A stretch of 61,769 bases of DNA from a virus (IMGVR_UViG_3300006033_000029:1-61769); one strand, 5' to 3'. Shown: positions 12,017 to 57,620, counted from the stretch's first letter. Numbers and translations are program-made. Notes: generated by a model from the sequence alone, not told the origin.

Positions 12017-12261
12017 TGGCCGACCTTGAAGCTGATCTGCGCGCTGCCGCGAGGAACGGCTTCCTTGATCTCAGCCTGCATCGTCGGCCGACCGGCGAAT
12101 GGGAAGCTGCGTATCGCACGACCGACACTCTCGAAGTCTACCGCCACGAGGCGAAGGACATCGTTGAGGCGATCGGCAAGGCGGTGCGCAGCGGCACTCG
12201 AGTCGTAAAGGCCGTCTCACCGCAGCCGAAGCGGCGGCGTGACACGGAGGATCTCGCGTGA
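12016..12261 (+). CDS. Hypothetical protein ending PKRRRDTEDLA
   Basis: Coupled ORF in the operon. Confidence 0.75.
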   Translation: MADLEADLRAAARNGFLDLSLHRRPTGEWEAAYRTTDTLEVYRHEAKDIVEAIGKAVRSGTRVVKAVSPQPKRRRDTEDLA

Positions 12262-12485
12262 TCGACATCTCTTTCGCCTTTGGTGACAAATACCAAGGTG
12301 TCTCCTTCTGGAAAGCCTCGGACGGTCGCGTTCAGTGTAACATCAAGAATAACGGCGGCTTCACCATCGACTACGGCGACACTCCCGAAGAAGCCTGGGA
12401 GAACGCACGGGCTCAGGCCGAGGGACGCAAGGCGCGACCGAGCAGCCCGAAGAAACGCCGCCGCGACACAGAGGATCTGGCATGA
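12258..12485 (+). CDS. Hypothetical protein ending PKKRRRDTEDLA
   Basis: Coupled ORF; GGAGG SD before GTG. Confidence 0.75.
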   Translation: MIDISFAFGDKYQGVSFWKASDGRVQCNIKNNGGFTIDYGDTPEEAWENARAQAEGRKARPSSPKKRRRDTEDLA

Positions 12486-13027
12486 ACCGCCAAGGCACAT
12501 GGATGCAGACCGTCAGCGGGAAGGCTTTCTGGCCGATCGACCCGCGCCCCGAGGAACTGGACATCGGCGACATCGCTCATGCCCTCAGCATGATGTGCCG
12601 CTACGGCGGGCACTGCAGCCGTTTCTACAGTGTCGCCGAGCACAGCGTGCTGATGGCATCCTATGCTCTCGCCAACCACGGCGAAGAGGTAGCGAAGATC
12701 GCTCTGATGCACGATGCGACCGAAGCGTATCTGACAGACGTGATCCGGCCGATCAAGGCGCACCTCTCCAATTACAAGGAGATCGAGGGGCGTCTCTGGC
12801 TTTGCGTCGCCGAGCGTTTCGGTCTGCCGAGGGTAATCCCCGATGAAGTACAGCACCTCGACAACGCGATCCTCCGTGACGAGATGAGCGCGCTGCACAT
12901 GCCGCCGCCGATGGATTGGAACATCCCGTCCGAGGGTCTCGGCGTGCATATCGCTGGCTGGGAGCCGTCACTCGCCAGGTGGGCCTTCCTCGGCATGTAC
13001 TATCGGCTATGGGGTGAGACATGCTGA
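12482..13027 (+). CDS. HD-domain phosphohydrolase (5'-deoxynucleotidase, YfbR/YfdR-like)
   Basis: DIAHALS..CRYGGH, YSVAEHS, LMHDATEAYLTDV. Confidence 0.9.
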   Translation: MNRQGTWMQTVSGKAFWPIDPRPEELDIGDIAHALSMMCRYGGHCSRFYSVAEHSVLMASYALANHGEEVAKIALMHDATEAYLTDVIRPIKAHLSNYKEIEGRLWLCVAERFGLPRVIPDEVQHLDNAILRDEMSALHMPPPMDWNIPSEGLGVHIAGWEPSLARWAFLGMYYRLWGETC

Positions 13028-14316
13028 TCACTCGTCCCTGGGCGCTTTACAACGAGATTGACGAATATGCAGCAGACTGGCTCGAAAACCTCATTCGACT
13101 TGGTGTCATCGCTCCGGGTGTTGTCGATCGCCGAAGCATCGAAGATCTTCGAGGAGATGACCTCCGAGGATTTCGACAGTGCCATTTCTTCGCTGGCATC
13201 GGAGTTTGGAGTTACGCCCTCCGTTGCGCGGGCATCCCGGATGACGCTCCTCTTTGGACGGGAAGCTGCCCCTGCCAACCTTTCAGCGCGGCAGGCAAAG
13301 GAACAGGGATGGATGATGAGCGGCACCTATGGCCTACCTGGTTCCACCTCATCCAGCAGGAACGCCCGCCACGCATCTATGGAGAGCAGGTTGCGAGCAA
13401 GGACGGCCTCGGTTGGCTCGACCTTGTACTCGCTGACATGGAAGCAGAGGACTACTCCATCTGGGCGGTCGATACCTGCTCTGCGGGCAGTGGGGCGCCG
13501 CATATCCGACAGCGGCTCAGGTTCTTCGCCTACGATCTACGATCTTCCACAGGTCGGCTGGAACACACCGGCGATGACCGATCACAAGGGCGGCTACTTG
13601 GGCGGCAGGATGCGCAACGGGGAACTCTCGACGGATCGTCTGGACGTGACAGCGCAGTTGACCGGATGGCCAGCAGTGACGACCATGACGGGCGGTCAGA
13701 CCTCTCGCAGCGGCGACCGGAAGAACGAACCGCTGATGGGCGGGGCAGCGCAGCTTTGCGGATTGCCGACCTGCACGGCGACGGATGCAATCAAGGGCGG
13801 CAACGTCTCACCTCGGCCGGGGATGATGGGTTTGTCGGAAACGGTGCCCTTGGCAGGCTGGCCGACGCCAGCGGTAGCGGACGACAACAACTCCCGATAC
13901 TCGCCAGAAGCGATGGAGCGGGAAGCCGCGCGGGAGAAGAAGGGGTCGAGCCTCGGGACCGCAACCTACATTCAGATGACCCACGACGGCCCGGCCCGAC
14001 TAACGGCTTCTGGCGAGATGCTGATTGGCTCTTCTGCCGGGATGGAAAGTGGAGGCCAGTTGAATCCGGCACATTCCCGCTGGTTGATGGGTCTGCCTTC
14101 CGTATGGGATCAGGCGGCGCCTTTGAAGGCAAGTCGCGGCAAGGGATGCTCAGATGCTACGGAAACGCGGTCGACCTCCAAGCAACGATCGACTTCATCG
14201 AAGCCACTCTCGAACCGGACGTCATTGACGCTTTACGAAGTGGCTCTGATGAGCCTTGCCAATCACCTTTAGAGTTATATACTCGCAGCAGACGTGACAT
14301 CGAGGATCTGGCATGA
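13021..14316 (+). CDS. C5-cytosine DNA methyltransferase, alpha polypeptide (motifs I, IV, VI, VIII, X)
   Basis: [36 protein letters not shown] and C-terminal YGNAV. The middle region is low-information and lacks motif IX. Confidence 0.88.
13058..14272 (+). CDS. C5 methyltransferase beta polypeptide in the +1 frame (TRD-like repeats plus motif IX); true start uncertain, possibly ATG 13313/13316
   Basis: 404 open codons nested in the alpha gene. Modules GWNTP, GWPAV, GLPTC and GWPTP, then [18 protein letters not shown]. Confidence 0.78.
14256..14283 (+). promoter_or_regulatory. Probable internal promoter/operator in the MTase 3' end
   Basis: TTGCCA...TATACT enclosing ATCAC-CTTTAGA-GTTAT. The 15 bp AATCACCTTTAGAGT is identical to 60465-60479. 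Confidence 0.55.
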
Positions 14317-14504
14317 GCGAATCGCGTGACCACATTTGCCCCCGCTGCGGCAGTTACCTGCCGATCGTCACGGTGCGCGTCCCGGTGTACGAGGATCGAA
14401 CTGTCTGGGACGAGATCGACAGCATCGGAAGATCCCCGGTCTTGACCGGCTACGAGGAGCGCGAGGATGTCACCGAGTGCGTCCGCTGCACGGGGTCGTA
14501 CTGA
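14313..14504 (+). CDS. Small Zn-ribbon protein
   Basis: CPRC...CVRC. Confidence 0.7.
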   Translation: MSESRDHICPRCGSYLPIVTVRVPVYEDRTVWDEIDSIGRSPVLTGYEEREDVTECVRCTGSY

Positions 14505-14746
14505 TGAAGCATGAGTTCTCACTTTCAAGCAAGCTTGCCGCCCTTGATGTCGGACACGTCATCTATCTGGACGACGACGATCCCGTTGCGGAAGGTCGCA
14601 CTTCCGCGACCCAGATGGAGAGGCAGGTTACCAACATCGTCGCGAAGAGTGAAAAGCTGAAAGGGCGGAAGTTCAGCACTGCAAGATGCGGTCTCATCAT
14701 CGCTCGATCCATGCGACCCGTCCTTCGCATCGAGAGAATCGAGTGA
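14504..14746 (+). CDS. Hypothetical protein
   Basis: TGATG coupling; MKHEFSLSSKLAALDVG... Confidence 0.65.
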   Translation: MKHEFSLSSKLAALDVGHVIYLDDDDPVAEGRTSATQMERQVTNIVAKSEKLKGRKFSTARCGLIIARSMRPVLRIERIE

Positions 14747-14964
14747 TGCAGGACACCAACAGATACCCGGCGATCTGCTACCGATGCGGCCAGCGCTGCG
14801 CGGCTGGTGAAGGCGTCGTCTCATATCCGACCTGGGAGCACCTGAAGGCGTGGCCGCATCATCCACACCGCAAGGTTCTCGTCGAGCACAAGGAGTGCGC
14901 CGAGAAGTTCGCCGGGACATTCGTCCACTACATTGACCAACCGGAAAGGAAGACAGATGCGTAA
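14746..14964 (+). CDS. Small Zn-binding protein
   Basis: NRYPAICYRCG...EHKEC. Confidence 0.65.
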   Translation: MQDTNRYPAICYRCGQRCAAGEGVVSYPTWEHLKAWPHHPHRKVLVEHKECAEKFAGTFVHYIDQPERKTDA

Positions 14965-15133
14965 CCTGCCTCGTCACATCGTTGCCGCGCTGAACAAGTT
15001 CGACGAGGCCGCGCAGCAGTTGGCATTCAAGGGCGCCGCGATGCCCGAGGAACGCCACGCTATCGTCCACCAGCATCAGCAAGCCCGCGAGAAGCTGGAA
15101 ATCGTCATCCAGAAAGCATTGGAGAAGCGCTGA
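14957..15133 (+). CDS. Hypothetical protein
   Basis: SD AAGGA; helical 58 aa. Confidence 0.6.
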   Translation: MRNLPRHIVAALNKFDEAAQQLAFKGAAMPEERHAIVHQHQQAREKLEIVIQKALEKR

Positions 15134-15258
15134 TGGTCATCTGTTTCAAGGGGCACATGCTCTGCTTCGCCCAAGACGCCCGGTCGGCAACCCAAGACCT
15201 CGCCTTGGCTCTGCTCAGCGCCATCCAGCAATCCTATCCCGAGAGGCTCGCCAAATGA
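15133..15258 (+). CDS. Hypothetical 41-aa protein
   Basis: Fills the gap exactly, with TGATG and ATGA overlaps. Confidence 0.5.
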   Translation: MVICFKGHMLCFAQDARSATQDLALALLSAIQQSYPERLAK

Positions 15259-16145
15259 CCATCGCCGCCAAAGTGATCGCCCACAGTCGAGCGGACGCGG
15301 GTACGCCCGATCTGATCACGCTGCAACTGCGATACCCGCGTTTCATCCATGCTGAGTTCATGACCCACCGGGTCTTCTCGCGCAACGCCAGCAGCAGCCG
15401 GGCCATCCCGGTCGAGCGGATGATCCGGGACGTGATCGATGATCCGGCGATGCCGGTGCGCTGGGGCGCCAACCAGCCGGGGATGCAGGACGCGGGGGAT
15501 CACGATGCCTTGGTTCTCTGCGGCGCTTCTGTCGCCGAGGTGGATCACTATGGACCATACGTCTCGCCCGATCAGGCGTGGTGCTACGCTCGGGACAAGG
15601 CCGTCGAGATGGCGCGGAACTTCGCCATGGCAGGCTACCACAAGCAGGTCGTGAACCGGCTGCTGGAACCCTTCGGTCACATCAGCGTCGTAGTCACCGC
15701 GACCGAGTGGGATAACTTCTTTGCGCTGCGCTGCCACCCGGATGCCGATCCTACGATGCGGGCGCTGGCTGAGGCGATGCGGGATGCGATTGCCGCTTCG
15801 AAGCCGGAAATCGTTGATGGTGGGTGGAGTTGGCACCTTCCCTATATCACCGAAGAAGATTTGCGATCGGACGTTGTGCAGAGCAAGTTGCAGCCCGAAG
15901 CAAACCGACTGCTGGCCATGATCAGCGCCGCCCGCTGTGCCAGGGTGTCCTACCTGAACCACGACGGCAGCAGCCCTGACATCGACAAGGACCTCGCACT
16001 AGCCAAGAGGCTACTGGAGTCGAAGCATATGTCTCCGTTCGAGCATCAGGCCGAAGCGTGCGCCAACGGCGTCAAGAAGACCTACCTGACCAGCAACCTG
16101 CGCGGCTGGTATCAGTTCCGCAAGATTATCGAGGTCGCAGCATGA
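15255..16145 (+). CDS. thyX: Flavin-dependent thymidylate synthase
   Basis: AEFMTHRVFSRNASSSRAIP, HKQVVNRLLEPF, SAARCARVSY, HMSPFEHQA. Confidence 0.92.
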   Translation: MTIAAKVIAHSRADAGTPDLITLQLRYPRFIHAEFMTHRVFSRNASSSRAIPVERMIRDVIDDPAMPVRWGANQPGMQDAGDHDALVLCGASVAEVDHYGPYVSPDQAWCYARDKAVEMARNFAMAGYHKQVVNRLLEPFGHISVVVTATEWDNFFALRCHPDADPTMRALAEAMRDAIAASKPEIVDGGWSWHLPYITEEDLRSDVVQSKLQPEANRLLAMISAARCARVSYLNHDGSSPDIDKDLALAKRLLESKHMSPFEHQAEACANGVKKTYLTSNLRGWYQFRKIIEVAA

Positions 16146-16179
16146 CCGCCCGAGACGACGCCTTCAAGGAAGGGAAAGC

Positions 16180-16614: not shown

Positions 16615-16877
16615 CAATCCTCATCTACGAGTGCCCCGAGGCGCCACCGAAGCGCCGGTTCATCGCTCAGCATGAGCGAATGGAAAACAGCCTCTACCTG
16701 ACCTGTCACGGCTCAACGGCAGAGATCGCCCGAGCCAAGGCGCAACTGATGCTGGACTATGCCTCGCTCGATCCGAAGGAGCGCACCGGATTCAAGTTGA
16801 AGGAGCGTCTCGAAGCCCTGAACGGAGGCAACCTTCCTTCCCGTAAACCCCGCCGCGACGTCGACGACCTCGCCTGA
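16611..16877 (+). CDS. Hypothetical protein ending RKPRRDVDDLA
   Basis: ATGA-coupled ORF. Confidence 0.7.
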   Translation: MTILIYECPEAPPKRRFIAQHERMENSLYLTCHGSTAEIARAKAQLMLDYASLDPKERTGFKLKERLEALNGGNLPSRKPRRDVDDLA

Positions 16878-16893
16878 TACCCGGAGACCCGAA

Positions 16894-17616
16894 TTGCCTG
16901 AGCACTCGATCGCCGACGCGGTGGTGACATCTATGAAGCGGCACAAGCGCAAGCCTGCCGACTTCTATCCTACCCCTGCAGACGTGACCCACGCCCTCTG
17001 TCAGTGGCTCGATCTAGGTCAAGGAATTCAGATCTGGGAGCCTGCATGTGGCGACGGTGCTATGGCGAAGGTTTTGCTGCACTACGCCGACAGCGTGATC
17101 GCTACCGATTACCGGGAGGACTCTGGTTACGGCTATGGAGGTGTCGACTTCCTAAAGCAGCCAGAAGATCCTGATGAAAAGCTTTCACCAGATTGGATCA
17201 TCACGAACCCGCCGTTCAACCTGGCTCTGGACTTCATCCGGCACGCGCTGACCTTCACCCCGAACGTCGCCATGCTGCTGAAGGCCACCTACTGGAACGC
17301 TGCTGGACGAGCGAAGTTCTTCAGCGATCATCCGCCAGCTTGGATCCTTCCGCTGACGTGGCGTCCAGCCTTTCTGGAAGCGGAGCGGGGCAGCAGCCCG
17401 TTGATGGACGTAATGTGGTGTGTGTGGAAGGCTAACTCGGAAGGGCAAACTAAATTCACCCCACTGCTTCGACCGAAAGTAGTAACTGATCTGTCGCGCG
17501 GCGAACCCGAGTATGTCGACTTCCTTGAGCGGAGATTCAAGATCGACAGTGACGTCTATGCAACGGAGTCGCACCCTTACCTCGACCTCCTCGGAATTTG
17601 CTTGTCGGCAGAGTGA
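16894..17616 (+). CDS. Amino (probably N6-adenine) DNA methyltransferase
   Basis: DFYPTP, WEPACGDG (SAM binding), IITNPPF (catalytic). TTG start after GGAG. Confidence 0.88.
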   Translation: MPEHSIADAVVTSMKRHKRKPADFYPTPADVTHALCQWLDLGQGIQIWEPACGDGAMAKVLLHYADSVIATDYREDSGYGYGGVDFLKQPEDPDEKLSPDWIITNPPFNLALDFIRHALTFTPNVAMLLKATYWNAAGRAKFFSDHPPAWILPLTWRPAFLEAERGSSPLMDVMWCVWKANSEGQTKFTPLLRPKVVTDLSRGEPEYVDFLERRFKIDSDVYATESHPYLDLLGICLSAE

Positions 17617-17656
17617 AGCCCTGTTAATCACTGTTGCAGTTACTATGAGGGACAAC

Positions 17657-18150: not shown

Positions 18151-18153
18151 GGC

Positions 18154-19279: not shown

Positions 19280-19296
19280 CAGATCACCTTCGCAGA

Positions 19297-38919: not shown

Positions 38920-39198
38920 TCAGGCCAGGTCGTTGTCGGGCTTCTTGTCGCCAGCAGATTCGACCTTCTTGTCGTCAGCCTTCTCGGCCTTCGCAGCGCG
39001 CTTCTTCTGCTCTTTGACCATGCGCTTGCTTTCGGCCTCGGCGATCTCGCCGATCGTGGCCTTGCGCAGATAGCCGTTGGCGATCGCGGCCTCGGCTTCA
39101 TCTTCGGGGAAGTCGAAAGCGATGGTGTTGGCAGGCGCGCAGAACTTCTTGCCGTCGACCAAGTAGTAGAGACGCACGAGTGCGAGGTATTGGTTCAT
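38920..39198 (-). CDS. Hypothetical protein (gpFI-like position) ending DKKPDNDLA
   Basis: SD GAGGAG; charged tail. Confidence 0.7.
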   Translation of the reverse strand: MNQYLALVRLYYLVDGKKFCAPANTIAFDFPEDEAEAAIANGYLRKATIGEIAEAESKRMVKEQKKRAAKAEKADDKKVESAGDKKPDNDLA

Positions 39199-42152: not shown

Positions 42153-43863
42153 TCTGGTTCTCTACTGCACTGTCGGGATTGTCGGCCTCGGTGCTCGGAG
42201 TCAACGCAGCGGTCATAGTCTGGTTGCCGGGGAACACGAGTTCTCTCTTCTTGATGTCGGCCTGCTCACGCTGCTGCTGTGCGAAGACCTGGCGCCAGTC
42301 GTTGCCGAGGCGCGCGTGCTCCTGCTCGTAAGTGCTGAGACCGCTCTGCAGGCGCAGGACCGCCGCCTGGGTTTCCTTCAACTCGTCGATCTGGCCGCGC
42401 GATGCGCCGATCCACTCTGCCGAGGAGTATGCCTCCTTGTTCATCCGCTCCCAGAACGACGGAGCGTTGCGCGGCATCGAGGTAATCTCGCCGATGGCGA
42501 TGGCTTCTTCCAGCCAGAGCGAATAGATGATGTTGGCGAACCTGTCGGCGACGTTACGCTTCACCGACTGCATGGTCTTCCACGTCTCGTTGTTCGCGGC
42601 CCGAGCCGACGAGTAGTTCGTCTTGCTGTAGTCCTTCGACAACTGCTCGTAGCTGACGCCGAGGATCGCCGCGATGTAGCGAAGAAGGCTCTGCTCGAAG
42701 TCAGTGCCGATCAGACCGCCCTGCGACGGGCTGCGCAGGTTCAGCTTCATGCCCGGCAGAAGATGCGGAACCTTGACGCCATCAAGAGTCAGGTTCTCCG
42801 AAGTGCTGGCGTAGGCTTCCGAGGCGGTCATGTAGCCCGATGTCACCGACGCCAAAGCCTTCGCCACCGCGTTGCTGTCCAGTTGCCCGCCGCCGATGGC
42901 TTGGAACACGACTTCGCTGGGCAGTTCCGACTCGATGGTCGCGGCGTAGGTCGCGTTCAGGACGGCGTTCTGCAGCGTCACCTCTCGGAATCGCTTGGTG
43001 ATGCGAGACTCCTTGAGCCCAGCGACCATAGCCGAGAAACCGCGCGACTGTGCGGCCCGCTGCTGCTCGAAGATGTGGATCACCTTGTCACGGCCCCATC
43101 CATAAGTGCGGGCGACGCGTGTCCACGAGTTGCGTGCCTGCATGATGTCGCCAGGATGGACGTCGCGGATGTGGTATGCGACAGGAGCGCCGTAGCGGTC
43201 CTTTTCCACGCCCATGCTCATCTGCGGTCCATCGCGCATCGTCGGCGGCGTGCTCAGACGATCGGGGTCGATCAGTTGAATCGCGGTGCGGAACGGCTTG
43301 CGGTCACGCGGGTATTCAGCAGTGCCGAAAACTTCGCCGGTCGTCGTGAACTGTGCGATGGCGAGACGGACAAGACCGGTCAGAGTGTTGACGCGCTGAG
43401 CATCGACATAGCACGACGGGCTCTCGGCCCACAGCGTGAACTTGCTCTCGACTTCGGTCTGAAATTCCTCAGCCCACGTCTCGTCCAAAGCCGAATTCTC
43501 AAAAGACAGATACTTGTAGTTCGGCTTGGAGTTCAGCAGGAACATCGCGCCGACAATGCTGTCCTTGCGGATCTCAGCACCGGCAGCGGCGTATGCGTCA
43601 TTGCGGATGGTGTCGCGAACGCGGGCATCCATCAGTCGCTTGGACGGAGCCAGGTCGCGGTCGGCCGAGCGCACGGGCGGCTGGAACAGCAGCATCTCTT
43701 GCGAGAGACGGCTTCCGGCCTCATACGCCTCGCCGATCATGGCTTTCGGGACGGCGCCCGTGTCGGGCTGGAGAACTTCACCAGACACGGGCGCCCTTGA
43801 CAAGGGCGAGATGACCGCCCCGGCCAATTCGAGGATCTCTTGTCTACGGCTCGCACGCACCAT
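42145..43863 (-). CDS. Portal protein (lambda family)
   Basis: QLIDPDRL, GVEKDRYGAPVAYHI, QSRG, YSKTNYSSARA, IDELKE. Confidence 0.95.
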   Translation of the reverse strand: MVRASRRQEILELAGAVISPLSRAPVSGEVLQPDTGAVPKAMIGEAYEAGSRLSQEMLLFQPPVRSADRDLAPSKRLMDARVRDTIRNDAYAAAGAEIRKDSIVGAMFLLNSKPNYKYLSFENSALDETWAEEFQTEVESKFTLWAESPSCYVDAQRVNTLTGLVRLAIAQFTTTGEVFGTAEYPRDRKPFRTAIQLIDPDRLSTPPTMRDGPQMSMGVEKDRYGAPVAYHIRDVHPGDIMQARNSWTRVARTYGWGRDKVIHIFEQQRAAQSRGFSAMVAGLKESRITKRFREVTLQNAVLNATYAATIESELPSEVVFQAIGGGQLDSNAVAKALASVTSGYMTASEAYASTSENLTLDGVKVPHLLPGMKLNLRSPSQGGLIGTDFEQSLLRYIAAILGVSYEQLSKDYSKTNYSSARAANNETWKTMQSVKRNVADRFANIIYSLWLEEAIAIGEITSMPRNAPSFWERMNKEAYSSAEWIGASRGQIDELKETQAAVLRLQSGLSTYEQEHARLGNDWRQVFAQQQREQADIKKRELVFPGNQTMTAALTPSTEADNPDSAVENQNA

Positions 43864-46295: not shown

Positions 46296-46984
46296 AGCAC
46301 CACCTCTTCGTCCATGTCACCGGCCAATGGGTGAGTCTCGTCGGCCTCGGCCATACGGATTGCATCAGTGTAGATGTCCTCTTGGAGCCCATCCATGACC
46401 GCTCTGATCAGTTTGTATTGATCGGGCGTGATGCCAGTCATCCGTTCGAGTTGATCGGGGACGAGTTGGAGACGCTCGCGGATCGAGAGCAGGTACTCGC
46501 TGAACTTCGCCAGCACCTCTGACGTGTGCCAAAGTTCCCCTTCTTCCTGCATCACGCGGTTGCGGGCGCGTCTGGCTTGCCACAACTTGAGGCGCAGATC
46601 GTCGGGGAGATCATCGTCCTTGATGCTGCGTAAGAACTCCGCAGTGTCCACCTTCGGGTCGACCAGGTATGCAGCGGCGTCGGCCACCAAATAGAGCGGG
46701 TTGCCGTGCGCCCCGACGTCGATCGGGCGGCAGTCCTTCAGGCGGCGCTTCACCTGGTGCTCAGTCATGCCGAACACGAGCGCCAACCAGCGAACCGGCA
46801 CACCCTGCTTGATCTGGTAGACGCCACGGTAGGAGAGGTCCACGTCGCCATCTTCTTCGCCCTTCGGAGGTGGCAGCAGGGAAGGGTCGATCTTGCGCGG
46901 TCGCCCAGGACCACGGCGCGGCGGTGCCGTCACGACGCCCGCCAATTCGTCAATCTCGCGGCGGCGGTCTTCAGGCATCATCAA
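46292..46984 (-). CDS. terS: Terminase small subunit (Chi-like)
   Basis: Directly upstream of terL; wHTH-like WLALVFGMTEHQVKRRL; AAAYLVDP; GELWHT. Confidence 0.8.
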   Translation of the reverse strand: MMMPEDRRREIDELAGVVTAPPRRGPGRPRKIDPSLLPPPKGEEDGDVDLSYRGVYQIKQGVPVRWLALVFGMTEHQVKRRLKDCRPIDVGAHGNPLYLVADAAAYLVDPKVDTAEFLRSIKDDDLPDDLRLKLWQARRARNRVMQEEGELWHTSEVLAKFSEYLLSIRERLQLVPDQLERMTGITPDQYKLIRAVMDGLQEDIYTDAIRMAEADETHPLAGDMDEEVVL

Positions 46985-48528: not shown

Positions 48529-48755
48529 CAGGCCAACTCGTGACTATCGCGTTTCCGTTTGGGCTTGCTGCCCATCTTGTCGCCGAGCCATTGCTCGACC
48601 TGGTTCTTATGCCACAGGGGTGCTCTGCCGATGTAGATCGGCTCAGGAACTCGACCATCCTTGACATGTCGCCACAGCGTCGTCTTCGACATGCGGAACA
48701 GCGACATCATGTCGGCACTGTCGAGCATCTGAAGATGAGAGTTTTCGGGTTTCAC
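48528..48755 (-). CDS. AlpA/excisionase-like HTH protein ending PKRKRDSHELA
   Basis: MSKTTLWRHVKDGRVPEPIYIG..PLW. GTG start after AGGTGG. Confidence 0.85.
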   Translation of the reverse strand: MKPENSHLQMLDSADMMSLFRMSKTTLWRHVKDGRVPEPIYIGRAPLWHKNQVEQWLGDKMGSKPKRKRDSHELA

Positions 48756-51571: not shown

Positions 51572-53652
51572 AGTTCCTCGTAATAGCCGATGTCTTCGAG
51601 GATACGCCGAGCCTCACGCACATACCATGCAAAATCAACGTCTTCGGGGAACTCGTCCGGAAGATCCATGATGGGGCGGGCACCATCACTCTTCGGCACG
51701 CGGTTCAAGCTGTCCTTGTAGTGAATGGCCCCGTTGCCACAGGTCGACTGATACCAGCGAATGGCCTTGCCGAGGTAGTGCGCATCACCGGCGTCGAAGC
51801 GCGCGCCAGGCTTGAGCAGTTGCCCCCGTTTTCCGCGCCGCTCGAACTCGATCTCTTTGACGTTCCAGATCGCCCCACCCTTCACAGTGCGCACAGTGAC
51901 GAATTTGCGAATGTCACGGCACTCGCGGATGGTCTTGGAGACAGGCGTGCCGGTGGAAAGAAACGTCGCTACTGCTTCGGCGCAGATGTCCATCGTCGGG
52001 TTCTTCTTCTCTTCCAGACCAGACTTCGCGTAGGCACCCTTGCGCTTGACGCCGCCATCAGGCTTCAGCGCATAGTAGTTGTTCACATCCCTACTGTAGA
52101 TCGCGATATACTCTACGCTTTCCATCTCGAAGCCTGTCTCTTTCTCCCAGCGTTTGATGATAGACTTCATCTCGTCTAGGCGTTTGCGCGGGCACTTTAT
52201 CACGATGCCGTCAGTGTTCCCGCTGACGACGGAAATGCCCGCCAGTTCCAACCACTCAATCAGCATCAGCAGCGCCAACTGACCGGTCAGCGTCACGGTA
52301 ATCAGCAGGTTCGGGGAGAACAGCGCAGACCAACGCGAGCCCAGCTTCCCGAAGGCGCCGTTGATCATGATCTTGCCACCTTCATTGGCGACCTTCTGCT
52401 GGTGCGCTTCAGCCTTCAGTTCGGCCAGACGTTCCACGATCAGTTCACTCTGGCGGTCGACCTGTTCGATCTGCGCCTGTAACGCCTTGATCTCTTTCTC
52501 AAGTTCCTTCTGCTTCGCCTTTGCCGCTAGGCGGCGATCGACAATGCTTCGGTAGACCTTGAGGAACACCTTCCCCATCGTCTCCGGGTAGAGCCCGAGG
52601 GTTAGGATGATGTTCGGGTAGTAGGATGCCACGTCGGCGTCGATCAGCACATATTCATCATCGGAGTGGTGGACGGCGCGCTTCTCGGAAGAGTGCAGAC
52701 CACCGATGCCCATGCGGTAGACAGAGGTGCCGAGCCGCAGAGCGCCCTCGCGGTTGTCCTCCTCGTCCTCGTTCAGGTGACCGATCGTCTCGCCCATCTG
52801 CTCGAAGGTGATCTCGGCATCAGACAAGAAGTCTGGCATCTGCACCTTGCCGCTGTAGGACAGCTTGAACTCCCAAGCCTCGATCGTGTCGAGGAGATCG
52901 TTCAGGTGCTCGTTCTCGAAGCGGATGTAGTCAGGCGCGCGGTACTTGAAGGGCTTGATGTTCGCGAGGTCGGGCTTCTTCGGCGCGGTGCCGGTGATCT
53001 GCTCGACGCGCTTCTTGATGACCGCCTCAGCCACCTGAGCGTCGGACTTCGAGCGAAGGTCCATGCCATATTCGCGGGAGAGTTCTGTGCGCAGCGCGAT
53101 CTGCTCGGACAGGCTCAAATACAGGTCTTTCGTGGCCTGAAGGTCGTTCTTCCAGTACCGGTAGACCTCTTCCTTCTGGTCCTCAGTGAGGATCGCCTCG
53201 GGGTCGATCGGCAAGTCCTGCATCCGCTTGCCGTGGATGCGACCATTGTAGATCTTCAGGCTCGCCTTGCCGGGGGCGACCTCGATCAAGTCGATGTGGT
53301 CGAGTTTCTTGGGGATCTCGATTTCCCAATCGCGCTCGATGTCCCACGCCTTCTGCTGAACAAAATCTCCGTTCTTCCCCCGCTTACCGACGACGATCTC
53401 GTTCGCGAGACGCTTCAGCGCCTTCGCCGCGAATCCCTTGAGCGCGGCGAACAAGATCAGTATGTCGAACCCTCGGCTGTTGAAGCCGACGATCAGGTTT
53501 TTCATCACCAGACGACGAATCGCATTGCGATCTTCGAGCGATAGCGGTTCTTCGAACTCCCACGACCAGATCTCGTCGGTCTGGAAGTCCATGAAGCCGA
53601 TCAAGCAGTAGTTCTCGTAGATCTCGATGTCGTGGATCAGTGTTCGCTTCAC
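51568..53652 (-). CDS. DNA polymerase, family B-like, with 3'-5' exonuclease
   Basis: Exonuclease motifs HDIE, GFNSRGFD, YWKND. Polymerase motifs DVASYYP, KIMINGAFGK, NTDG. Confidence 0.9.
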   Translation of the reverse strand: MKRTLIHDIEIYENYCLIGFMDFQTDEIWSWEFEEPLSLEDRNAIRRLVMKNLIVGFNSRGFDILILFAALKGFAAKALKRLANEIVVGKRGKNGDFVQQKAWDIERDWEIEIPKKLDHIDLIEVAPGKASLKIYNGRIHGKRMQDLPIDPEAILTEDQKEEVYRYWKNDLQATKDLYLSLSEQIALRTELSREYGMDLRSKSDAQVAEAVIKKRVEQITGTAPKKPDLANIKPFKYRAPDYIRFENEHLNDLLDTIEAWEFKLSYSGKVQMPDFLSDAEITFEQMGETIGHLNEDEEDNREGALRLGTSVYRMGIGGLHSSEKRAVHHSDDEYVLIDADVASYYPNIILTLGLYPETMGKVFLKVYRSIVDRRLAAKAKQKELEKEIKALQAQIEQVDRQSELIVERLAELKAEAHQQKVANEGGKIMINGAFGKLGSRWSALFSPNLLITVTLTGQLALLMLIEWLELAGISVVSGNTDGIVIKCPRKRLDEMKSIIKRWEKETGFEMESVEYIAIYSRDVNNYYALKPDGGVKRKGAYAKSGLEEKKNPTMDICAEAVATFLSTGTPVSKTIRECRDIRKFVTVRTVKGGAIWNVKEIEFERRGKRGQLLKPGARFDAGDAHYLGKAIRWYQSTCGNGAIHYKDSLNRVPKSDGARPIMDLPDEFPEDVDFAWYVREARRILEDIGYYEEL

Positions 53653-53700: not shown

Positions 53701-54543
53701 TCAGGCCACGTCCTCGTCGCGGCTGCGACGGCGCCGGGGTGCCGGCTCGTCGTCTTCATCATCGCGGCTGCGGCGGCGAGGAGCCCGATCTTCGTCCTCG
53801 TCACGGGACCGACGCTTCGGACGTTCTTCCTCATCTTCATCATCGCGGCTGCGGCGGCGAGGAGCCCGCTCTTCATCTTCATCTTCGTCTTCATCGTCGC
53901 GGCTGCGGCGCTTCGGACGTTCATCCTCGTCGTCATCGCGGGACTTGGAACGGCGGCTCGGCCGTTCATCCTCGTCATCGTCCTCGAAGTCGTCGGCGTC
54001 GATCGGCGCGGCACCGAACGCTTCGCCGTCAGCGCGGAACTTCACCCCTTCGAGGCTGGCGTTGATGCGCTTTCCGTACTTGTTGTCCTGACCCCAGACG
54101 CGGACGATCATGTCGACGTAGCATCCGGCGTAGGGAGCACCCTCCTCACCCTCACGCACGTCCTGGCCGTCAACATCGAGGACGCGCGGCTTCCTCGCGT
54201 TGGATGCGGTGACGTACATCATGCCCTCGTAGCCTTCCTTCATCTCCTCAAGGTCTTCGGAGTCCTTCAGGCAGATCTTCGTCGGAGAGAACTTCGGAGC
54301 ACCCTTCGGCCATGTGGTCCTCTTCACATGCTCGATCGCGTCTTCCAGCTTGGCGATGTTCACCTTGCCGATCTTCGTGGTGGGGTCCATCAGTGCCACC
54401 GCGCTGAACTTCGGCTCGCCCGAACTGTCGCCACCGTCGCTGCCGCCAAATACCTTGGCCTTGTAGATGGACGGGTAGGAGAGACGGACGTTCTTCAGCA
54501 GAACTCGCGCCGGATCCTTCTTCTTCTTCTCGGTCATGTTCAA
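53701..54543 (-). CDS. Single-stranded DNA-binding protein (DUF2815-like) with a long mixed-charge repeat tail
   Basis: NVRLSYPSI, PKFS, YAGCYV, NKYGKRINASLEGVKF..DGEAFG. Confidence 0.9.
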   Translation of the reverse strand: MNMTEKKKKDPARVLLKNVRLSYPSIYKAKVFGGSDGGDSSGEPKFSAVALMDPTTKIGKVNIAKLEDAIEHVKRTTWPKGAPKFSPTKICLKDSEDLEEMKEGYEGMMYVTASNARKPRVLDVDGQDVREGEEGAPYAGCYVDMIVRVWGQDNKYGKRINASLEGVKFRADGEAFGAAPIDADDFEDDDEDERPSRRSKSRDDDEDERPKRRSRDDEDEDEDEERAPRRRSRDDEDEEERPKRRSRDEDEDRAPRRRSRDDEDDEPAPRRRRSRDEDVA

Positions 54544-56286: not shown

Positions 56287-56287
56287 C

Positions 56288-56689
56288 TCAATACTTCTTG
56301 CCCCCTGCTGCACGGGTTTCCAGCTTGTGATCGGCGCGCTGCCGGTTGTAGCGGTTCTTCTCGATGATCGCGCCGGCCACGTCCAAACCCAGCGCAGCCG
56401 CCGTGTCGAAGATGCGGAGGATGCAGTCAGCGAACTCGACCTCGCGGCCGTCGCGGTGAGGCAGTTTGTCGTCCATCAACCCATTGCGATCAGCTTCCAG
56501 CGCCTCGGAGAGTTCCGAGTGCATCAGCGCCACTACTTCACCGAAGTTGCGCTTGATCGGCAGCAGCGTCGTCGGATCGGTGTACCAGCCAGCCTCGGTG
56601 GCGGTGCGGTGCGCGAGATCCTGAGCCTTCGCCAGACCGATGTAGGCGTCGGCCTCTTCGCGACTCATGTCGTCGATCGTAAGACGCAT
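56288..56689 (-). CDS. MazG-like NTP pyrophosphohydrolase
   Basis: ALMHSELSEALEADR...EVEFADCILRIFD...EKNRYN. Confidence 0.88.
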   Translation of the reverse strand: MRLTIDDMSREEADAYIGLAKAQDLAHRTATEAGWYTDPTTLLPIKRNFGEVVALMHSELSEALEADRNGLMDDKLPHRDGREVEFADCILRIFDTAAALGLDVAGAIIEKNRYNRQRADHKLETRAAGGKKY

Positions 56690-56919
56690 CAGCCGACCCT
56701 CCGAAGGCCGACAGTGGGGAAACCGTTGGCCTGGTGCCACATGAACTGGCTCAGAGCCACCGGCATCTTCTTCGCCCGGCGCTGCTGGTGGCGAACGACC
56801 TGGCGAGAGAGACCGAGGTCTTCGGGGGCGTTCTTCAGCCGCTTCGCCGTGGCCTTGCGGTGTACATCGAGACGCTTCGCAGCGCGCTCAGCACCGGTCG
56901 TCACTTTCTTCTTCGTCAT
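56689..56919 (-). CDS. Hypothetical basic protein
   Basis: SD GGAG; TGATG-coupled. Confidence 0.6.
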   Translation of the reverse strand: MTKKKVTTGAERAAKRLDVHRKATAKRLKNAPEDLGLSRQVVRHQQRRAKKMPVALSQFMWHQANGFPTVGLRRVG

Positions 56920-57003
56920 CTCGGTTCTCCATTCGAGGTCCTCGGAGGAGACGCGCTGACGCGCCTCGCCGGAAGACCCCGCCGTGAAGCGGGGTCGCCG
57001 AGG

Positions 57004-57186
57004 TCAGATGACGGATTCCAGCGCGTCAACATCCCACCACGCCTCGACGGCGCGACCGTCACCGGCCATGTAGCGGACAAGCGCCTGGTCCGCGTGGTTC
57101 TTGTACTGAGCGTAGCCGACGACAATACCCTTCTCGCCAGAACAGACGATTTTCACCCGCTCGTCGAGACCGAATACCGGGTTCAC
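57004..57186 (-). CDS. Small SH3-like hypothetical protein
   Basis: SGEKGIVVGYAQY...VRYMAGDGRAVEAWW. Confidence 0.7.
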   Translation of the reverse strand: MNPVFGLDERVKIVCSGEKGIVVGYAQYKNHADQALVRYMAGDGRAVEAWWDVDALESVI

Positions 57187-57620
57187 GCCAGCGACTCCTC
57201 TTCGTAGCCGGTTTCATCACCGGCCTTGTATGCGGTCAGCGCGTCAAGTGCCTTCTGCCGTTCGGCCTCGGGGATCTCCGACATCTTCTTCACGCCGTGA
57301 CTGGCGATGATGCGCTTGACCAGCGCGCGGCGGGCGTCGTGTTCGTCATCGTCGTCGACTTCCAGGAACTCGACAGTCGCGTCGGCCATTTCCTTTTCGG
57401 TCGGAGCCCTCTTCGCCTTCGGTTTCTCGGCAGCAGCCTCCTTCGGCGGGCGCCCGCGACCACGCGGAGCATCTTCGACTTCGACGTCCTTCGGCTTCTC
57501 GGCCGGCGCCGAGGTCTTCGCGGCAGCGCCAGCAGCAGCCTTGGCCGTGAGCCCTTCCAGAAGATCGCTGTTGCGGTTAAGTGCCGCCGTGAGAGCCTTG
57601 ATTTCGTCTTCAAGTGCCAT
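57183..57620 (-). CDS. Hypothetical protein with an AT-hook-like RGRGRPPK, ending EEESLA
   Basis: SD GGAG; first gene of the replication operon. Confidence 0.75.
   Translation of the reverse strand: MALEDEIKALTAALNRNSDLLEGLTAKAAAGAAAKTSAPAEKPKDVEVEDAPRGRGRPPKEAAAEKPKAKRAPTEKEMADATVEFLEVDDDDEHDARRALVKRIIASHGVKKMSEIPEAERQKALDALTAYKAGDETGYEEESLA

What the first reader, a model, noticed from the sequence alone, without database searches (positions are those of the whole stretch)
12229..57200. Shared C-terminal tag (basic cluster-D-x-[ED]-[DE]-L-A-stop) on many unrelated proteins
Seen, C-termini: PKRRRDTEDLA (12016-12261), PKKRRRDTEDLA (12258-12485), [10 protein letters not shown] (C5 MTase), RKPRRDVDDLA (16611-16877), PKRKRDSHELA (AlpA-like), PRRRRSRDEDVA (SSB), DKKPDNDLA (38920-39198) and EEESLA (57183-57620). 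Similar strings occur near N-termini: RRREIDELAG (TerS), RRQEILELAG (portal), RDEYDDDLAG (GapR). Codons differ between copies (CGG CGG CGT GAC ACG GAG GAT CTC GCG vs CGC CGC CGC GAC ACA GAG GAT CTG GCA vs CGC CGC GAC GTC GAC GAC CTC GCC), which points to selection on the peptide. Known: SSB C-terminal tails are docking motifs, and C-terminal Ala/hydrophobic ends act as ClpXP degrons in alphaproteobacteria. Inference: a phage-wide address label that recruits proteins to a common hub or compartment, or times their degradation. Caveat: in several copies E-D doubles as the SD (GAGGA) of the next, overlapping gene. That does not explain the basic cluster or the uncoupled copies at 16877, 38920 and 53701.
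Basis: partly seen in the sequence, partly recalled or inferred. Interest (0 to 1): 0.85.

Follow-up and report, generated by a model that had tools for sequence, protein, structure and literature searches.

The report
Shared SSB-type tail on phage proteins
Several unrelated early proteins of this phage end in a copy of the flexible tail of the phage's own single-stranded-DNA-binding protein, a conserved peptide handle that most likely plugs them all into one still unknown partner.

Summary
The window is a whole 61.8-kb Chi-like siphovirus genome. [KR][KR]-D-x-[DEH]-[DE]-[LVIM]-A occurs five times in six frames, each time directly before a stop at the end of a called gene. Overlap with the next gene's ribosome site does not explain it: 29 of 33 coupled genes lack it and 3 tagged genes are uncoupled. 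Nor does DNA copying: synonymous codons are as scrambled as chance allows. The tag is conserved in relatives (10 of 11 homologues of the 75-aa protein; 4 of 4 orthologues in a syntenic contig).

The tag is one unit of the phage SSB's own C-terminal tail, which is six basic-acidic repeats ending RDEDVA. In six Chi-like phages the SSB tip differs (DLA, DDIA, DLLG, DEV, DDDI, GLI) and each phage's other proteins carry its own version (1 of 720 permutations). The link also holds in 68 prophage loci (0 of 2000 shuffles).

Best reading: a trans-acting docking peptide that mimics the SSB tail, as in T7 (gp2.5, gp4) and T4 (gp43, gp33, gp55). The reader protein is unidentified. This scan noted the same phenomenon before in other genomes. 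My literature searches found no description of it.

The parts
12226..12258 (+). Tag PKRRRDTEDLA at the C-terminus of an 81-aa protein of no known family (gene 12016-12261)
   Evidence: Translation. No Pfam or PHROG hit. The orthologue in L180 ends PKPKREVEDLA.
12447..12482 (+). Tag PKKRRRDTEDLA at the C-terminus of a 75-aa protein (gene 12258-12485)
   Evidence: 10 of 11 small homologues end [ED]DL[ALI]. In the model, residues 1-54 fold at pLDDT about 90 and the tail 55-75 scores about 55.
14284..14313 (+). Tag [10 protein letters not shown] ending a roughly 28-aa C-terminal extension of the C5 cytosine DNA methyltransferase (gene 13021-14316)
   Evidence: Pfam DNA_methylase and phrog_363. Homologous MTase ORFs from 71 of the 80 loci: none ends in this tag and most stop near window residue 400. 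The L180 orthologue ends RKRDIEDLA.
16842..16874 (+). Tag RKPRRDVDDLA at the C-terminus of an 88-aa protein (gene 16611-16877). It is not coupled to the next gene (16-nt gap) and has no SD-like codons.
   Evidence: The L180 orthologue ends RKPHRDVDDLA.
48531..48563 (-). Tag PKRKRDSHELA at the C-terminus of the 66-aa AlpA/HTH_17-like protein (gene 48528-48728)
   Evidence: Pfam HTH_17 and Phage_AlpA, both below their cut-offs, and phrog_66. The orthologue in L092 ends PNRERDIDELA.
53704..53964 (-). C-terminal tail of the Enc34/gp2.5-type SSB (gene 53701-54537): six units of P-[KR]2-4-(S)-R-D-[DE]n, the last being PRRRRSRDEDVA-COOH. This is the template that the tags resemble.
   Evidence: Pfam Enc34_ssDNA-bd E 2e-29 and phrog_112. 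Repeat units and composition D28 R27 E19 in the last 100 residues. 37 of the 45 closest homologues end [DE][LVMI]A. The unit [KR]2-5..D.[DEH][DE] occurs 11 times in the proteome: 5 in this tail, 5 as tags two residues from a C-terminus, 1 elsewhere.
38923..38949 (-). Weaker tag DKKPDNDLA at the C-terminus of a 92-aa protein encoded just after the major capsid gene (gene 38920-39198)
   Evidence: The orthologue in L091 ends SDDKTDLA. Same-position proteins in Chi, DSS3-P1, RHph_X2_30, Loktanella phage and L094 end in each phage's own tip. Only L091 is a BLAST orthologue; for the others the correspondence is by position after the capsid gene.
57186..57203 (-). Weak tag EEESLA at the C-terminus of a 145-aa protein (gene 57183-57620). 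It has no basic cluster, and GAGGAG doubles as the SD of the next gene.
   Evidence: The only BLAST orthologue (Loktanella, E 2e-10) ends SRKRDDIT. Proteins at the same position upstream of the exonuclease gene end EEDDV (Chi), DDDDILG (DSS3-P1), EDDEI (RHph_X2_30) and EEEEGII (L094); these correspondences are by position, not by BLAST.
11699..11728 (+). N-terminal look-alike RDEYDDDLAG in the GapR-like protein (gene 11693-12016)
   Evidence: Pfam GapR_DNA-bd. Orthologues: L180 DDDDLAG, Loktanella HDDIVGG, DSS3-P1 LDDLFG.
46937..46966 (-). N-terminal look-alike RRREIDELAG in the small terminase (gene 46292-46981)
   Evidence: L092 RRREMDDLAG, DSS3-P1 SIDDLLGG, RHph_X2_30 DFDDIFGA, L093 YSDVLGF.
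43819..43848 (-). N-terminal look-alike RRQEILELAG in the portal protein (gene 42145-43863)
   Evidence: Pfam Phage_portal_2. L091 RKQEINELAG, DSS3-P1 ESLDLLGI, RHph_X2_30 EFADVLGP, L093 RYADVLGP, Loktanella QEIIGV.
17578..17595 (+). Near-C-terminal YLDLLG in the N6 DNA methyltransferase (gene 16894-17616), six residues before its end
   Evidence: The orthologue in RHph_X2_30 ends GGFIDVLGE. The L180 orthologue has YLELLG.

Best explanation
The tag is a short linear docking peptide on a flexible C-terminal tail. [quoted passage not shown]

The SSB carries six such basic-acidic units in tandem. The C5 methyltransferase, the AlpA-like regulator and three small early proteins carry one unit each.

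Because they present the same tip as the SSB, these proteins most likely bind, in trans, the same site or sites that read the SSB tail. That would bring them to the phage's replicating or recombining DNA, or let them compete with SSB there.

Shown: the motif, its position, its conservation, its identity with the SSB tail unit, and its co-variation with the SSB tip across phages.

Inferred: that it acts by binding a common partner, and which partner that is. Candidates are the DNA polymerase, the DUF2800 exonuclease, the SNF2 helicase, the SSB's own OB-fold groove, the large terminase or a host protein.
For: 1. Position and excess. All 5 strict matches in six frames sit directly before stops at gene ends. 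7 of 77 proteins end [DE][LVM]A against 0.21 expected, and against 9 of 3400 control phage proteins.

2. Selection acts on the peptide, not the DNA. 48 of 78 same-residue codon pairs in the aligned tails use different codons, with 49.5 expected for independent draws.

3. SD or overlap does not explain it. 33 of 77 genes are coupled to the next gene and only 4 of those carry the tag. 3 tags are on genes with gaps of 11, 16 and 48 nt.

4. Conservation.
- 10 of 11 small homologues of the 75-aa protein (37-77% identity) end [ED]DL[ALI] behind a variable linker, and D73 and L74 are invariant or nearly so.
- All 4 tagged orthologues in the syntenic contig L180 keep the last four residues.
- The AlpA-like orthologue in L092 and the 92-aa orthologue in L091 also keep it.

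5. The tag equals an SSB tail unit. The unit [KR]2-5..D.[DEH][DE] occurs 11 times in the proteome: 5 in the SSB tail, 5 as tags two residues from a C-terminus, 1 elsewhere. 37 of the 45 closest SSB homologues end [DE][LVMI]A, and several end exactly ..RDDDDLA.

6. Co-variation.
- In six Chi-like phages the SSB's last four residues match the C-termini of that phage's own proteome best. The true pairing is the top 1 of 720 permutations (tails listed).
- In 68 prophage loci with this SSB family, the SSB tip matches 38 of 1596 neighbouring proteins, against 11.7 +/- 3.3 for shuffled tips (0 of 2000 shuffles reach 38).
- In an unbiased reduced-alphabet scan of 143 genomes or loci, the strongest shared tips are Chi, DSS3-P1, this window, L009, RHph_X2_30 and L094. 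L009 also carries an Enc34-type SSB, ending LFG.

7. The tail is appended and flexible. The MTase tag ends a roughly 28-aa extension that most of the homologous MTase ORFs from 71 of the 80 loci lack. In the model of the 75-aa protein the tail has pLDDT about 55.

8. Precedent.
- The acidic tail of T7 gp2.5 mediates contacts with polymerase and helicase-primase, and the gp4 tails dock on basic patches of gp5 (passages of PMC5686142, PMC10359462, PMC12593628).
- T4 gp43, gp55 and gp33 share interchangeable hydrophobic-acidic C-termini that bind the gp45 clamp (passages of PMC2988020).
Against: - No reader protein was identified, so binding is inferred, not shown.
- The basic cluster in front of the acidic tip has no counterpart in the T7 or T4 tails.
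- The window's SSB ends D-V-A while the clients end D-L-A, although close SSB homologues do end D-L-A.
- Two of the eight listed tails (38920-39198 and 57183-57620) lack the basic cluster and may belong to a looser class.
- All identified clients are DNA-binding proteins, so tails acting in cis remain possible.
- The polymerase is not a conserved component. The window's polymerase gives only a weak family-B hit and its Loktanella and RHph_X2_30 orthologues give no Pfam hit at all, whereas DSS3-P1 and L094 give weak family-A hits below the Pfam cut-off and L009 a family-A hit above it. A T7-style polymerase dock cannot simply be transferred.
- The window polymerase itself ends ..YYEEL.
- Gene calls are my own and are not curated.
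Confidence: 0.6

Rival explanations
1. Scaffold-and-client condensate. The SSB's six alternating Arg-rich and Asp/Glu-rich blocks make it a multivalent polyampholyte that self-associates into a replication compartment. Proteins with one such unit partition into it through the same charge-block contacts, without a folded receptor pocket.
For: - The SSB tail is a blocky polyampholyte: its last 100 residues hold D28, R27 and E19 in six units.
- The Loktanella phage SSB has about nine RGRGRGRD-EEEDE units.
- The tags are single copies of the unit.
- E. coli SSB forms condensates that concentrate its partners (PMC7584906, abstract and introduction as shown in the outline).
Against: - In DSS3-P1, Chi, RHph_X2_30 and L094 the SSB tails are purely acidic with no basic blocks, yet the shared-tip phenomenon is just as strong. 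Charge-block coacervation therefore cannot be the general mechanism.
- The invariant part of the tag in orthologues is the last four residues, not the basic cluster. That points to a specific pocket.
- No experiment here bears on phase separation.
Confidence: 0.15
2. Tails acting in cis. Each tail folds back on its own protein's DNA-binding surface as a DNA mimic that tunes DNA affinity or specificity. The similarity between proteins reflects a common physico-chemical solution, not a common partner.
For: - All identified carriers bind DNA: SSB, C5 MTase, HTH regulator, and in relatives primase, exonucleases, TerS and GapR.
- In Enc34 ORF6, removing the acidic tail lets the SSB bind dsDNA, and the tail lies in a neighbour's groove in the crystal (passages of PMC5686142).
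- The T7 gp2.5 tail is reported to compete with ssDNA for the binding surface (reference list and text of PMC5686142 and PMC10359462).
Against: - A generic electrostatic mimic does not need a precise aliphatic-plus-small tip.
- It also gives no reason for the tip to switch together in unrelated proteins from phage to phage.
- The last four residues are better conserved than the charged part.
Confidence: 0.12
3. C-terminal degron. The basic cluster plus a nonpolar -LA carboxy-terminus marks early proteins for timed degradation by a host AAA+ protease such as ClpXP or Lon.
For: - The position at the extreme C-terminus with a free carboxylate and a nonpolar end resembles, as I recall it, ssrA-type (..LAA) and MuA-type (basic) ClpX signals.
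- Most carriers are early proteins.
Against: - The same tail is on the SSB, and in relatives on primase-helicase and exonuclease, proteins needed throughout replication.
- The tip varies widely (LA, LLG, V, I, LI) between phages, including two that infect Rhodobacteraceae: Loktanella phage DDIA and Ruegeria phage DLLG. A host protease would hold it constant.
- The third-last residue is acidic, not nonpolar.
- N-terminal copies exist.
Confidence: 0.08
4. By-product of gene organisation. The tail is imposed by the Shine-Dalgarno sequence and start codon of the overlapping downstream gene, or it is a repeated DNA element or recombination junction copied between gene ends.
For: In three copies GAG GAT (E-D) is the GAGGA of the next gene, and the last codon's third base is the first base of ATG or GTG.
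Against: - 29 of 33 coupled genes lack the tag, and 20 coupled genes have SD-like sequence in their last 15 nt, mostly without it.
- 3 tags are uncoupled, and two tags contain no SD-like codons (16611-16877 and 48528-48728).
- Synonymous codon differences are at the level of independent draws (48 against 49.5 expected).
- There are no copies in other frames or outside genes.
- The basic cluster and L-A are unexplained by SD.
- Peptide conservation continues in orthologues whose DNA has diverged.
Confidence: 0.03

Closest known systems
Acidic C-terminal tails of phage T7 gp2.5 (SSB) and gp4 (helicase-primase), which dock on gp5 DNA polymerase
   Same: - The SSB is of the same structural family (Pfam Enc34_ssDNA-bd; the Enc34 ORF6 structure resembles gp2.5, PMC5686142).
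- The tail is disordered and acidic, and its end matters.
- A second, unrelated protein carries a like tail that contacts the same enzyme (PMC12593628 passages; the terminal Phe of both tails is recalled from memory, not from a call).
   Different: - Here at least five further proteins carry it, including a DNA methyltransferase, an HTH regulator and small proteins of no known family. In relatives the carriers include TerS, exonucleases and GapR.
- The tip is aliphatic-Ala, not Phe.
- The tail has a basic cluster.
- N-terminal versions exist.
- The partner is unknown, and the polymerase family is not conserved among phages that have the system.
Hydrophobic-acidic C-termini of phage T4 gp43, gp55 and gp33, which bind the gp45 sliding clamp
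   Same: Several functionally different phage proteins share a short, interchangeable C-terminal motif on a variable linker that tethers them to one hub (PMC2988020 passages). In relatives the tips (..FLDILG..DDLLG..QLDIFG) look like clamp-binding tails.
   Different: - The window's tag (RRDxEDLA) has only one large hydrophobic residue and does not fit the bacterial clamp-binding consensus QL[SD]LF (consensus recalled from memory).
- The Chi-like phages compared carry no gp45-type clamp.
- The window's own mini beta-clamp (9731-10429) has no BLAST counterpart in the four complete Chi-like genomes and three of the partial loci compared.
- Its 69%-identical homologue in L099 sits among proteins without such tags.
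Bacterial SSB C-terminal peptide (E. coli ..DDDIPF), the hub for the SSB interactome
   Same: - A conserved acidic-hydrophobic tip after a disordered, poorly conserved linker mediates many protein contacts and also binds the OB fold (PMC7584906 introduction).
- Three of the 120 SSB homologues listed end ..DDENPF..DDEIPF or ..DDDTPF.
   Different: In bacteria the tip is on SSB only and the partners carry pockets. Here the tip itself is copied onto other proteins, which implies sharing of, or competition for, a reader.
C-terminal ClpX recognition signals (ssrA ..LAA; MuA basic tail)
   Same: Extreme C-terminal position with a nonpolar end, and a basic cluster as in MuA (both recalled from memory).
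   Different: - The residue at -3 is acidic.
- The tag is present on the SSB.
- The tip varies between phages of related hosts.
- No test of stability was possible.

Membership tests
gp2.5/Enc34-type SSB C-terminal interaction tail | Sits at the extreme C-terminus of a gp2.5-type OB-fold SSB, after a disordered, compositionally biased segment | tested here: met
   For the SSB itself: Pfam Enc34_ssDNA-bd over residues 11-191, followed by about 90 residues of D/E/R/S/P repeats.
gp2.5/Enc34-type SSB C-terminal interaction tail | Acidic residues capped by a hydrophobic residue at or next to the free carboxy-terminus, conserved among homologues | tested here: met
   37 of the 45 closest homologues end [DE][LVMI]A, and 103 of 120 have an acidic-plus-hydrophobic tip.
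gp2.5/Enc34-type SSB C-terminal interaction tail | The tail binds the phage DNA polymerase and/or helicase-primase | not testable with these tools
   This needs a binding experiment. The single structure-prediction job gave no verdict either way (see Tried and rejected).
Shared docking tail (same peptide on SSB and other proteins, as in T7 gp2.5 and gp4) | Unrelated proteins of one phage carry the SSB's tip, and the tips change together between phages | tested here: met
   - Tag equals an SSB tail unit.
- Own-phage pairing is best in 1 of 720 permutations.
- 38 of 1596 neighbouring proteins match against 11.7 expected; 0 of 2000 shuffles reach 38.
Bacterial sliding-clamp-binding motif | Consensus QL[SD]LF or QLxLxL (recalled), with two large hydrophobic residues that fill the clamp cleft | tested here: not met
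   The window tags read D-x-[ED]-[DE]-L-A, with no Gln and only one large hydrophobic residue. Tips in L009 (..QLDIFG) do fit.
ssrA-type ClpX degron | The last three residues are nonpolar (..LAA, recalled), and the protein is unstable in a ClpXP-dependent way | tested here: not met
   The sequence part is not met: the last three residues are [DE]-[LV]-A. Stability is not testable here.
Translational-coupling artefact | The motif is confined to genes whose stop overlaps the next start, and is explained by SD plus start codon | tested here: not met
   Only 4 of 33 coupled genes carry it, 3 tags are on uncoupled genes, and two tags have no SD-like codons.

The most novel reading that the evidence does not exclude
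Chi-like phages and their kin run a private, fast-evolving 'postcode'. The SSB tail is both the scaffold and the address. In this phage it is multivalent, with six basic-acidic units. Any phage protein that acquires one unit, at either terminus, is delivered to an SSB-organised replication and packaging compartment. DNA modification (two methyltransferases), regulation (AlpA-like, GapR-like), recombination and packaging (TerS, portal, the protein encoded after the capsid gene) would thus be wired together by one peptide code. No folded hub of known type would be needed.
Probability: 0.15. Interest if true: 0.85.

Novelty: new variant of a known kind. Interest (0 to 1): 0.62.

Why it matters
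Shared docking tails are textbook knowledge for two or three replisome proteins of T7 and T4. Here the same principle covers many more kinds of protein: DNA methyltransferases, a transcription regulator, small proteins of no known family, and in relatives nucleases, primase, terminase and portal.

It runs through a whole phage family that includes the long-studied phage Chi, and the code changes from lineage to lineage.

It gives a direct experimental handle. A 10-residue peptide could be used to find the unknown reader, to assign a cellular address to proteins of unknown function, and to ask how replication, DNA modification and packaging are coupled in siphoviruses that lack a clamp.

It is also a practical annotation rule. 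In phages with a gp2.5/Enc34-type SSB, proteins that end like the SSB probably belong to its interaction network.

Tried and rejected
It held the DNA polymerase (alignment A4), the mini beta-clamp (A1) and residues 41-75 of the 75-aa tagged protein (A2). The verdict was 'no answer', which is evidence neither for nor against binding. Twelve earlier hand-ins bounced on a full queue.

2. It is a genuine DnaN domain II-III homologue.
- It has no BLAST counterpart in the four complete Chi-like genomes and three of the partial loci compared.
- Its 69%-identical homologue in L099 lies in a different phage context, with a bacterial-type SSB (..DDEIPF) and no such tags.
- I dropped it as the general reader. 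It is not excluded for this phage.

3. I paired 29 SSB and polymerase homologues by equal contig length and looked for polymerase columns that follow the tip class. The result is confounded by phylogeny and the pairing is heuristic, so I did not use it.

4. Direct search for the tag in IMG/VR by DNA pattern. It gave 5 single hits, none with a basic cluster, consistent with chance.

5. The search for related loci with the SSB alone was swamped by low-complexity words and gave 1 locus. With the polymerase alone it found none. Alignment A2 was too divergent to seed a scan, so I used a smaller alignment, A3.

6. Megablast of 12000-20000 against phage records gave only short methyltransferase matches and no close genome.

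7. Tandem Repeats Finder on the SSB tail found only short acidic-codon repeats. The peptide repeats have diverged at the DNA level.

8. Protein atlas for the 75-aa protein gave no named family.

9. Literature searches found papers on SSB, T7 and T4 tails. None in the held library describes a tail shared across Chi-like phage proteins. Subscription journals are not covered.

Full report
**What the window is.** The window is the whole assembly (61,769 bases, one contig). Its large terminase is 50% identical to that of Loktanella phage pCB2051-A, and 41-50% identical to those of other Casjensviridae. The head and packaging genes are lambda-like: gpA-type terminase, lambda-family portal, S49 protease, gpD-like decoration protein and gpE-like capsid protein. 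No close relative was shown in the phage record collection, so I called genes myself with a self-trained codon-usage script. This gave 77 genes after two corrections and one 13-aa call dropped. The C5 methyltransferase frame 13021-14316 was chosen because only that frame has the Pfam DNA_methylase hit.

On the 77 proteins, 7 end [DE][LVM]A. The same tripeptide occurs at 52 of 18,867 internal positions, so 0.21 terminal copies are expected. In proteins that I called the same way from other phage loci, the ending occurs in 7 of 1843 and 2 of 1557. The 80 loci around homologues of the methyltransferase (1.17 Mb) hold 30 internal six-frame matches of the loose pattern and none before a stop. The patterns are post hoc. 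An unbiased scan of reduced-alphabet terminal tripeptides over 143 genomes or loci nevertheless puts this window third, after phage Chi and Ruegeria phage DSS3-P1.

**Is it a by-product of gene packing or of DNA copying?** No.
- 33 of 77 genes abut or overlap the next gene, and only 4 of these carry the tag (plus the weak ..ESLA of 57183-57620).
- 20 coupled genes have SD-like sequence in their last 15 nt, mostly without the tag.
- Three tags are on genes followed by gaps of 11, 16 and 48 nt.
- The copies at 16611-16877 (GAC GTC GAC GAC CTC GCC) and 48528-48728 (GAT AGT CAC GAG TTG GCC) contain no SD.
- In the aligned last nine codons of six tails, 48 of 78 codon pairs that encode the same residue use different codons. 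Independent draws from the genome's codon usage would give 49.5. The DNA is therefore as scrambled as it can be while the peptide is kept.

**Is it conserved in relatives?** Yes.
- The 75-aa protein 12258-12485 has 14 hits in the representative library. Three are partial matches inside proteins of 1115-1481 aa, and I left those out. Of the 11 small homologues (37-77% identity), 10 end [ED]-D-L-[ALI]: 7 in LA, 2 in LL, 1 in LI. All have a basic cluster and a linker of variable length, and D73 and L74 are among the best-conserved columns.
- A 24-kb metagenomic contig, L180, is syntenic with window 8-21 kb. It keeps all four tags of that region (PKREVEDLA, PRREIEDLA, RKRDIEDLA, PHRDVDDLA). The last four residues are unchanged and the basic cluster is varied.
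- In L092 (TerL 94% identical) the AlpA-like orthologue ends NRERDIDELA. In L091 (88% identical) the orthologue of 38920-39198 ends DDKTDLA.
- The methyltransferase tag ends an extension of about 28 residues. I examined the homologous ORFs from 71 of the 80 loci. None ends in this tag and most stop near window residue 400. Nine (L001-L004, L006-L009, L011) have other extensions, ending EDLLA, FEDVLG, IGDLL, MELLV or GSIFE.
- In an AlphaFold model of the 75-aa protein, residues 1-54 fold with pLDDT about 90 and the tail 55-75 has about 55.

**What the tag is.** The phage's SSB (53701-54537, Pfam Enc34_ssDNA-bd, PHROG 'gp2.5-like') has a C-terminal region of about 90 residues. It is made of six units of P-[KR]2-4-(S)-R-D-[DE]n, the last being PRRRRSRDEDVA at the carboxy-terminus. 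The last 100 residues contain D28, R27 and E19.

The unit [KR]2-5..D.[DEH][DE] occurs 11 times in the proteome: five in the SSB tail, five as the tags (each exactly two residues from a C-terminus), and once elsewhere. Among 120 SSB homologues, 37 of the 45 closest end [DE][LVMI]A, several exactly ..RRSRDDDDLA. More distant ones end DDVV, DDDI, DDY, DLV, DDLLG or GLI, and three end in the bacterial ..[IN/T]PF type. The tag is thus a single copy of the SSB's own tail.

**The same holds, with other letters, in related phages.** I read the C-termini of five further genomes or loci.
- Loktanella phage: SSB ..RRRRSTGRDDDIA; others ..SRKRDDIT..TRRRDDDVI..TDDFI.
- DSS3-P1: SSB ..GDDDLLG; exonuclease ..VDDLLG; primase-helicase ..IEDLLG; others ..DDDILG..ISDLLA..VDDLLS..GEDLLG; two methyltransferases ..ALLA.
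- Phage Chi: SSB ..WEDEV; two exonucleases, primase, TerS and four more ..[DE][DE]V, in all 9 of 71.
- Rhizobium phage RHph_X2_30: SSB, primase and two more ..DD[DE]I, plus a second set ..FxD[IV]LG on a methyltransferase and five other proteins.
- L094: SSB ..DDGLI; exonuclease ..ESLI; helicase ..EALI; TerS ..ADLI.

I scored each SSB's last four residues against the C-termini of all six proteomes. The true pairing is the best of 720 permutations, and the same holds with five residues.

An independent set gave the same answer. In 68 prophage loci with this SSB family from bacterial genomes, the SSB tip matches 38 of 1596 neighbouring proteins, against 11.7 +/- 3.3 when tips are shuffled among loci. 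None of 2000 shuffles reaches 38. L009, a contig with an Enc34-type SSB ending ..LFG, has six more proteins ending [IL]FG. These include RusA and a GapR-like protein, and its C5 MTase ends ..GSIFE.

**N-terminal copies.**
- GapR-like: DDDLAG (window), DDDDLAG (L180), HDDIVGG (Loktanella), LDDLFG (DSS3-P1).
- TerS: EIDELAG, EMDDLAG (L092), IDDLLGG (DSS3-P1), FDDIFGA (RHph_X2_30), SDVLGF (L093).
- Portal: EILELAG, EINELAG (L091), SLDLLGI, FADVLGP, YADVLGP, QEIIGV.

The N6 methyltransferase 16894-17616 has YLDLLG six residues from its end, where its RHph_X2_30 orthologue ends FIDVLGE. A free carboxylate is therefore not always required. In the window the C-terminal form looks like [ED]-D-L-A-G without the Gly.

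**How it most likely works.** It is a short conserved tip on a variable, flexible tail; it is appended to unrelated folds; it is identical to the SSB tip; and it switches together across proteins from lineage to lineage.

This is how the T7 tails work. The gp2.5 tail contacts polymerase and helicase-primase, and the gp4 tails dock on basic patches of gp5 (passages of PMC5686142, PMC10359462, PMC12593628). It is also how T4 gp43, gp55 and gp33 share interchangeable hydrophobic-acidic C-termini for the gp45 clamp (passages of PMC2988020).

I put this at 0.6.
- The polymerase is the T7 analogue, but the phages that share the system do not share a polymerase. The window's gives a weak family-B hit. 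Its Loktanella and RHph_X2_30 orthologues give no Pfam hit. DSS3-P1 and L094 give weak family-A hits below the Pfam cut-off, and L009 one above it.
- The components common to all are the SSB core, the DUF2800 exonuclease and the SNF2 helicase.
- TerL is suggested by the motif on TerS, on portal and on the protein encoded just after the capsid gene. That is the lambda gpFI position, which is my inference from gene order.
- That the tip differs between phages of related hosts argues, weakly, for a phage-encoded reader.

**Rivals.**
- A condensate model (0.15) fits the six-unit polyampholyte SSB tail of this phage and of the Loktanella phage, and the known condensation of E. coli SSB (PMC7584906). 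It does not fit the purely acidic tails of DSS3-P1 and Chi, or the fact that the tip rather than the charge is the invariant part.
- Tails acting in cis as DNA mimics (0.12) fit the DNA-binding nature of the carriers and the Enc34 data. They do not explain co-switching of a precise tip.
- A degron (0.08) fits the position. It does not fit the presence on SSB, primase and exonuclease, nor the variation between phages.
- A gene-packing or DNA-repeat artefact (0.03) is contradicted.

**Novelty.** The kind is known: shared C-terminal docking tails of phage replication proteins. The variant is new to the literature I could search. Its features are a bipartite basic-acidic tail that is a unit of the SSB's own repeat, spread over methyltransferases, a regulator, small unknown proteins and (N-terminally) TerS, portal and GapR, as part of a family-wide, lineage-specific code. 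Searches found no description of it; the Enc34 paper treats the SSB tail only.

This scan has noted the same phenomenon before on other DNA: e1-249347 (Chi-like..EV/DV), e1-3438902 (acidic ..LLG), e1-1960956 (acidic ..Leu) and e1-337127 (nuclease plus SSB). I reached the reading before opening those notes. I reproduced the Chi and LLG patterns myself on public records. They too report an unidentified partner.

**Limits.**
- Gene calls are my own.
- Patterns for individual phages were chosen after inspection.
- Relatives in the permutation tests are not phylogenetically independent. Shuffling among related loci makes conservative rather than liberal.
- No binding, stability or localisation was or could be measured.

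Noticed in passing
window 9731-10429 (-): A 232-aa 'mini beta-clamp', homologous to DnaN domains II-III only.
- The pocket-forming segments are kept (ATDGHRM, DGTFPEW, ILMPAR).
- PDB 6deg E 6e-7; AlphaFold pLDDT 89; Foldseek top hits are DnaN (E 1.5e-9).
- It belongs to a family of proteins about 160-283 aa long: 98 hits in all, four of them full-length DnaN-like proteins of 350-406 aa, mostly from metagenomes.
- It ends in a basic ..PKRRR.
- Its function is unknown. It could mimic or compete with the host clamp.
   Followed up: partly
window 53704-53964 (-): The SSB tail is a blocky polyampholyte of six Arg-rich/Asp-Glu-rich units. The Loktanella phage SSB has about nine RGRGRGRD-EEEDE units. 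Tail length varies from about 240 to 350 aa totals among close homologues, as expected for repeat expansion and contraction.
   Followed up: partly
window 46981-48528 (-): This N6/N4 DNA methyltransferase is 515 aa and has an HNH-endonuclease-like segment (phrog_5046, residues 160-303). Its orthologue in L092 is 300 aa, so an inserted endonuclease or intein-like element is likely.
   Followed up: no
window 48843-51299 (-): The SNF2-type helicase is 818 aa, against 453-522 aa in the Loktanella, DSS3-P1, Chi, RHph_X2_30, L094 and L092 orthologues. The extra part carries endonuclease-like (phrog_93) and phrog_11354 matches.
   Followed up: no
window 3971-7312 (-): The ribonucleotide reductase large subunit is 1113 aa, with the PHROG match split into two stretches. 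The Loktanella phage orthologue is 761 aa. This may be an intein or another insertion.
   Followed up: no
window 51568-53652 (-) and L090, L094, L009: The DNA polymerase differs among phages that share the same SSB, exonuclease and helicase module. The window's gives only a weak family-B Pfam hit and its Loktanella and RHph_X2_30 orthologues give none. DSS3-P1 and L094 give weak family-A hits below the Pfam cut-off, and L009 a family-A hit above it. This looks like non-orthologous replacement of the polymerase.
   Followed up: partly
L009 (IMG/VR contig), whole locus: Seven proteins in 18 kb end in [IL]F[GE]: RusA, an Enc34-type SSB, a GapR-like protein, a C5 MTase and three small proteins. 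One tail, ..NQLDIFG, fits the bacterial clamp-binding consensus as I recall it. In that lineage the shared tail may address the host sliding clamp.
   Followed up: partly
L097+L098 (Rhizobium phage RHph_X2_30): There are two distinct shared tails in one genome. ..DD[DE]I is on SSB, primase and two others. ..FxD[IV]LG is on a methyltransferase and five other proteins, with N-terminal versions on TerS and portal. This suggests two readers.
   Followed up: no
window 44160-46295 (-) and orthologues: The large terminase C-terminus is conserved as ..L-x-x-L-[AG]-x-x-L-[GA] in all eight phages or loci compared (..ALRALGKKLG in the window). This is a different motif from the tag, and is presumably the portal-binding end.
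   Followed up: no
L180 14524-16854 (+): In the syntenic relative, the orthologue of the 240-aa N6 methyltransferase 16894-17616 is a 776-aa protein, so extra domains are fused N-terminally there.
   Followed up: no
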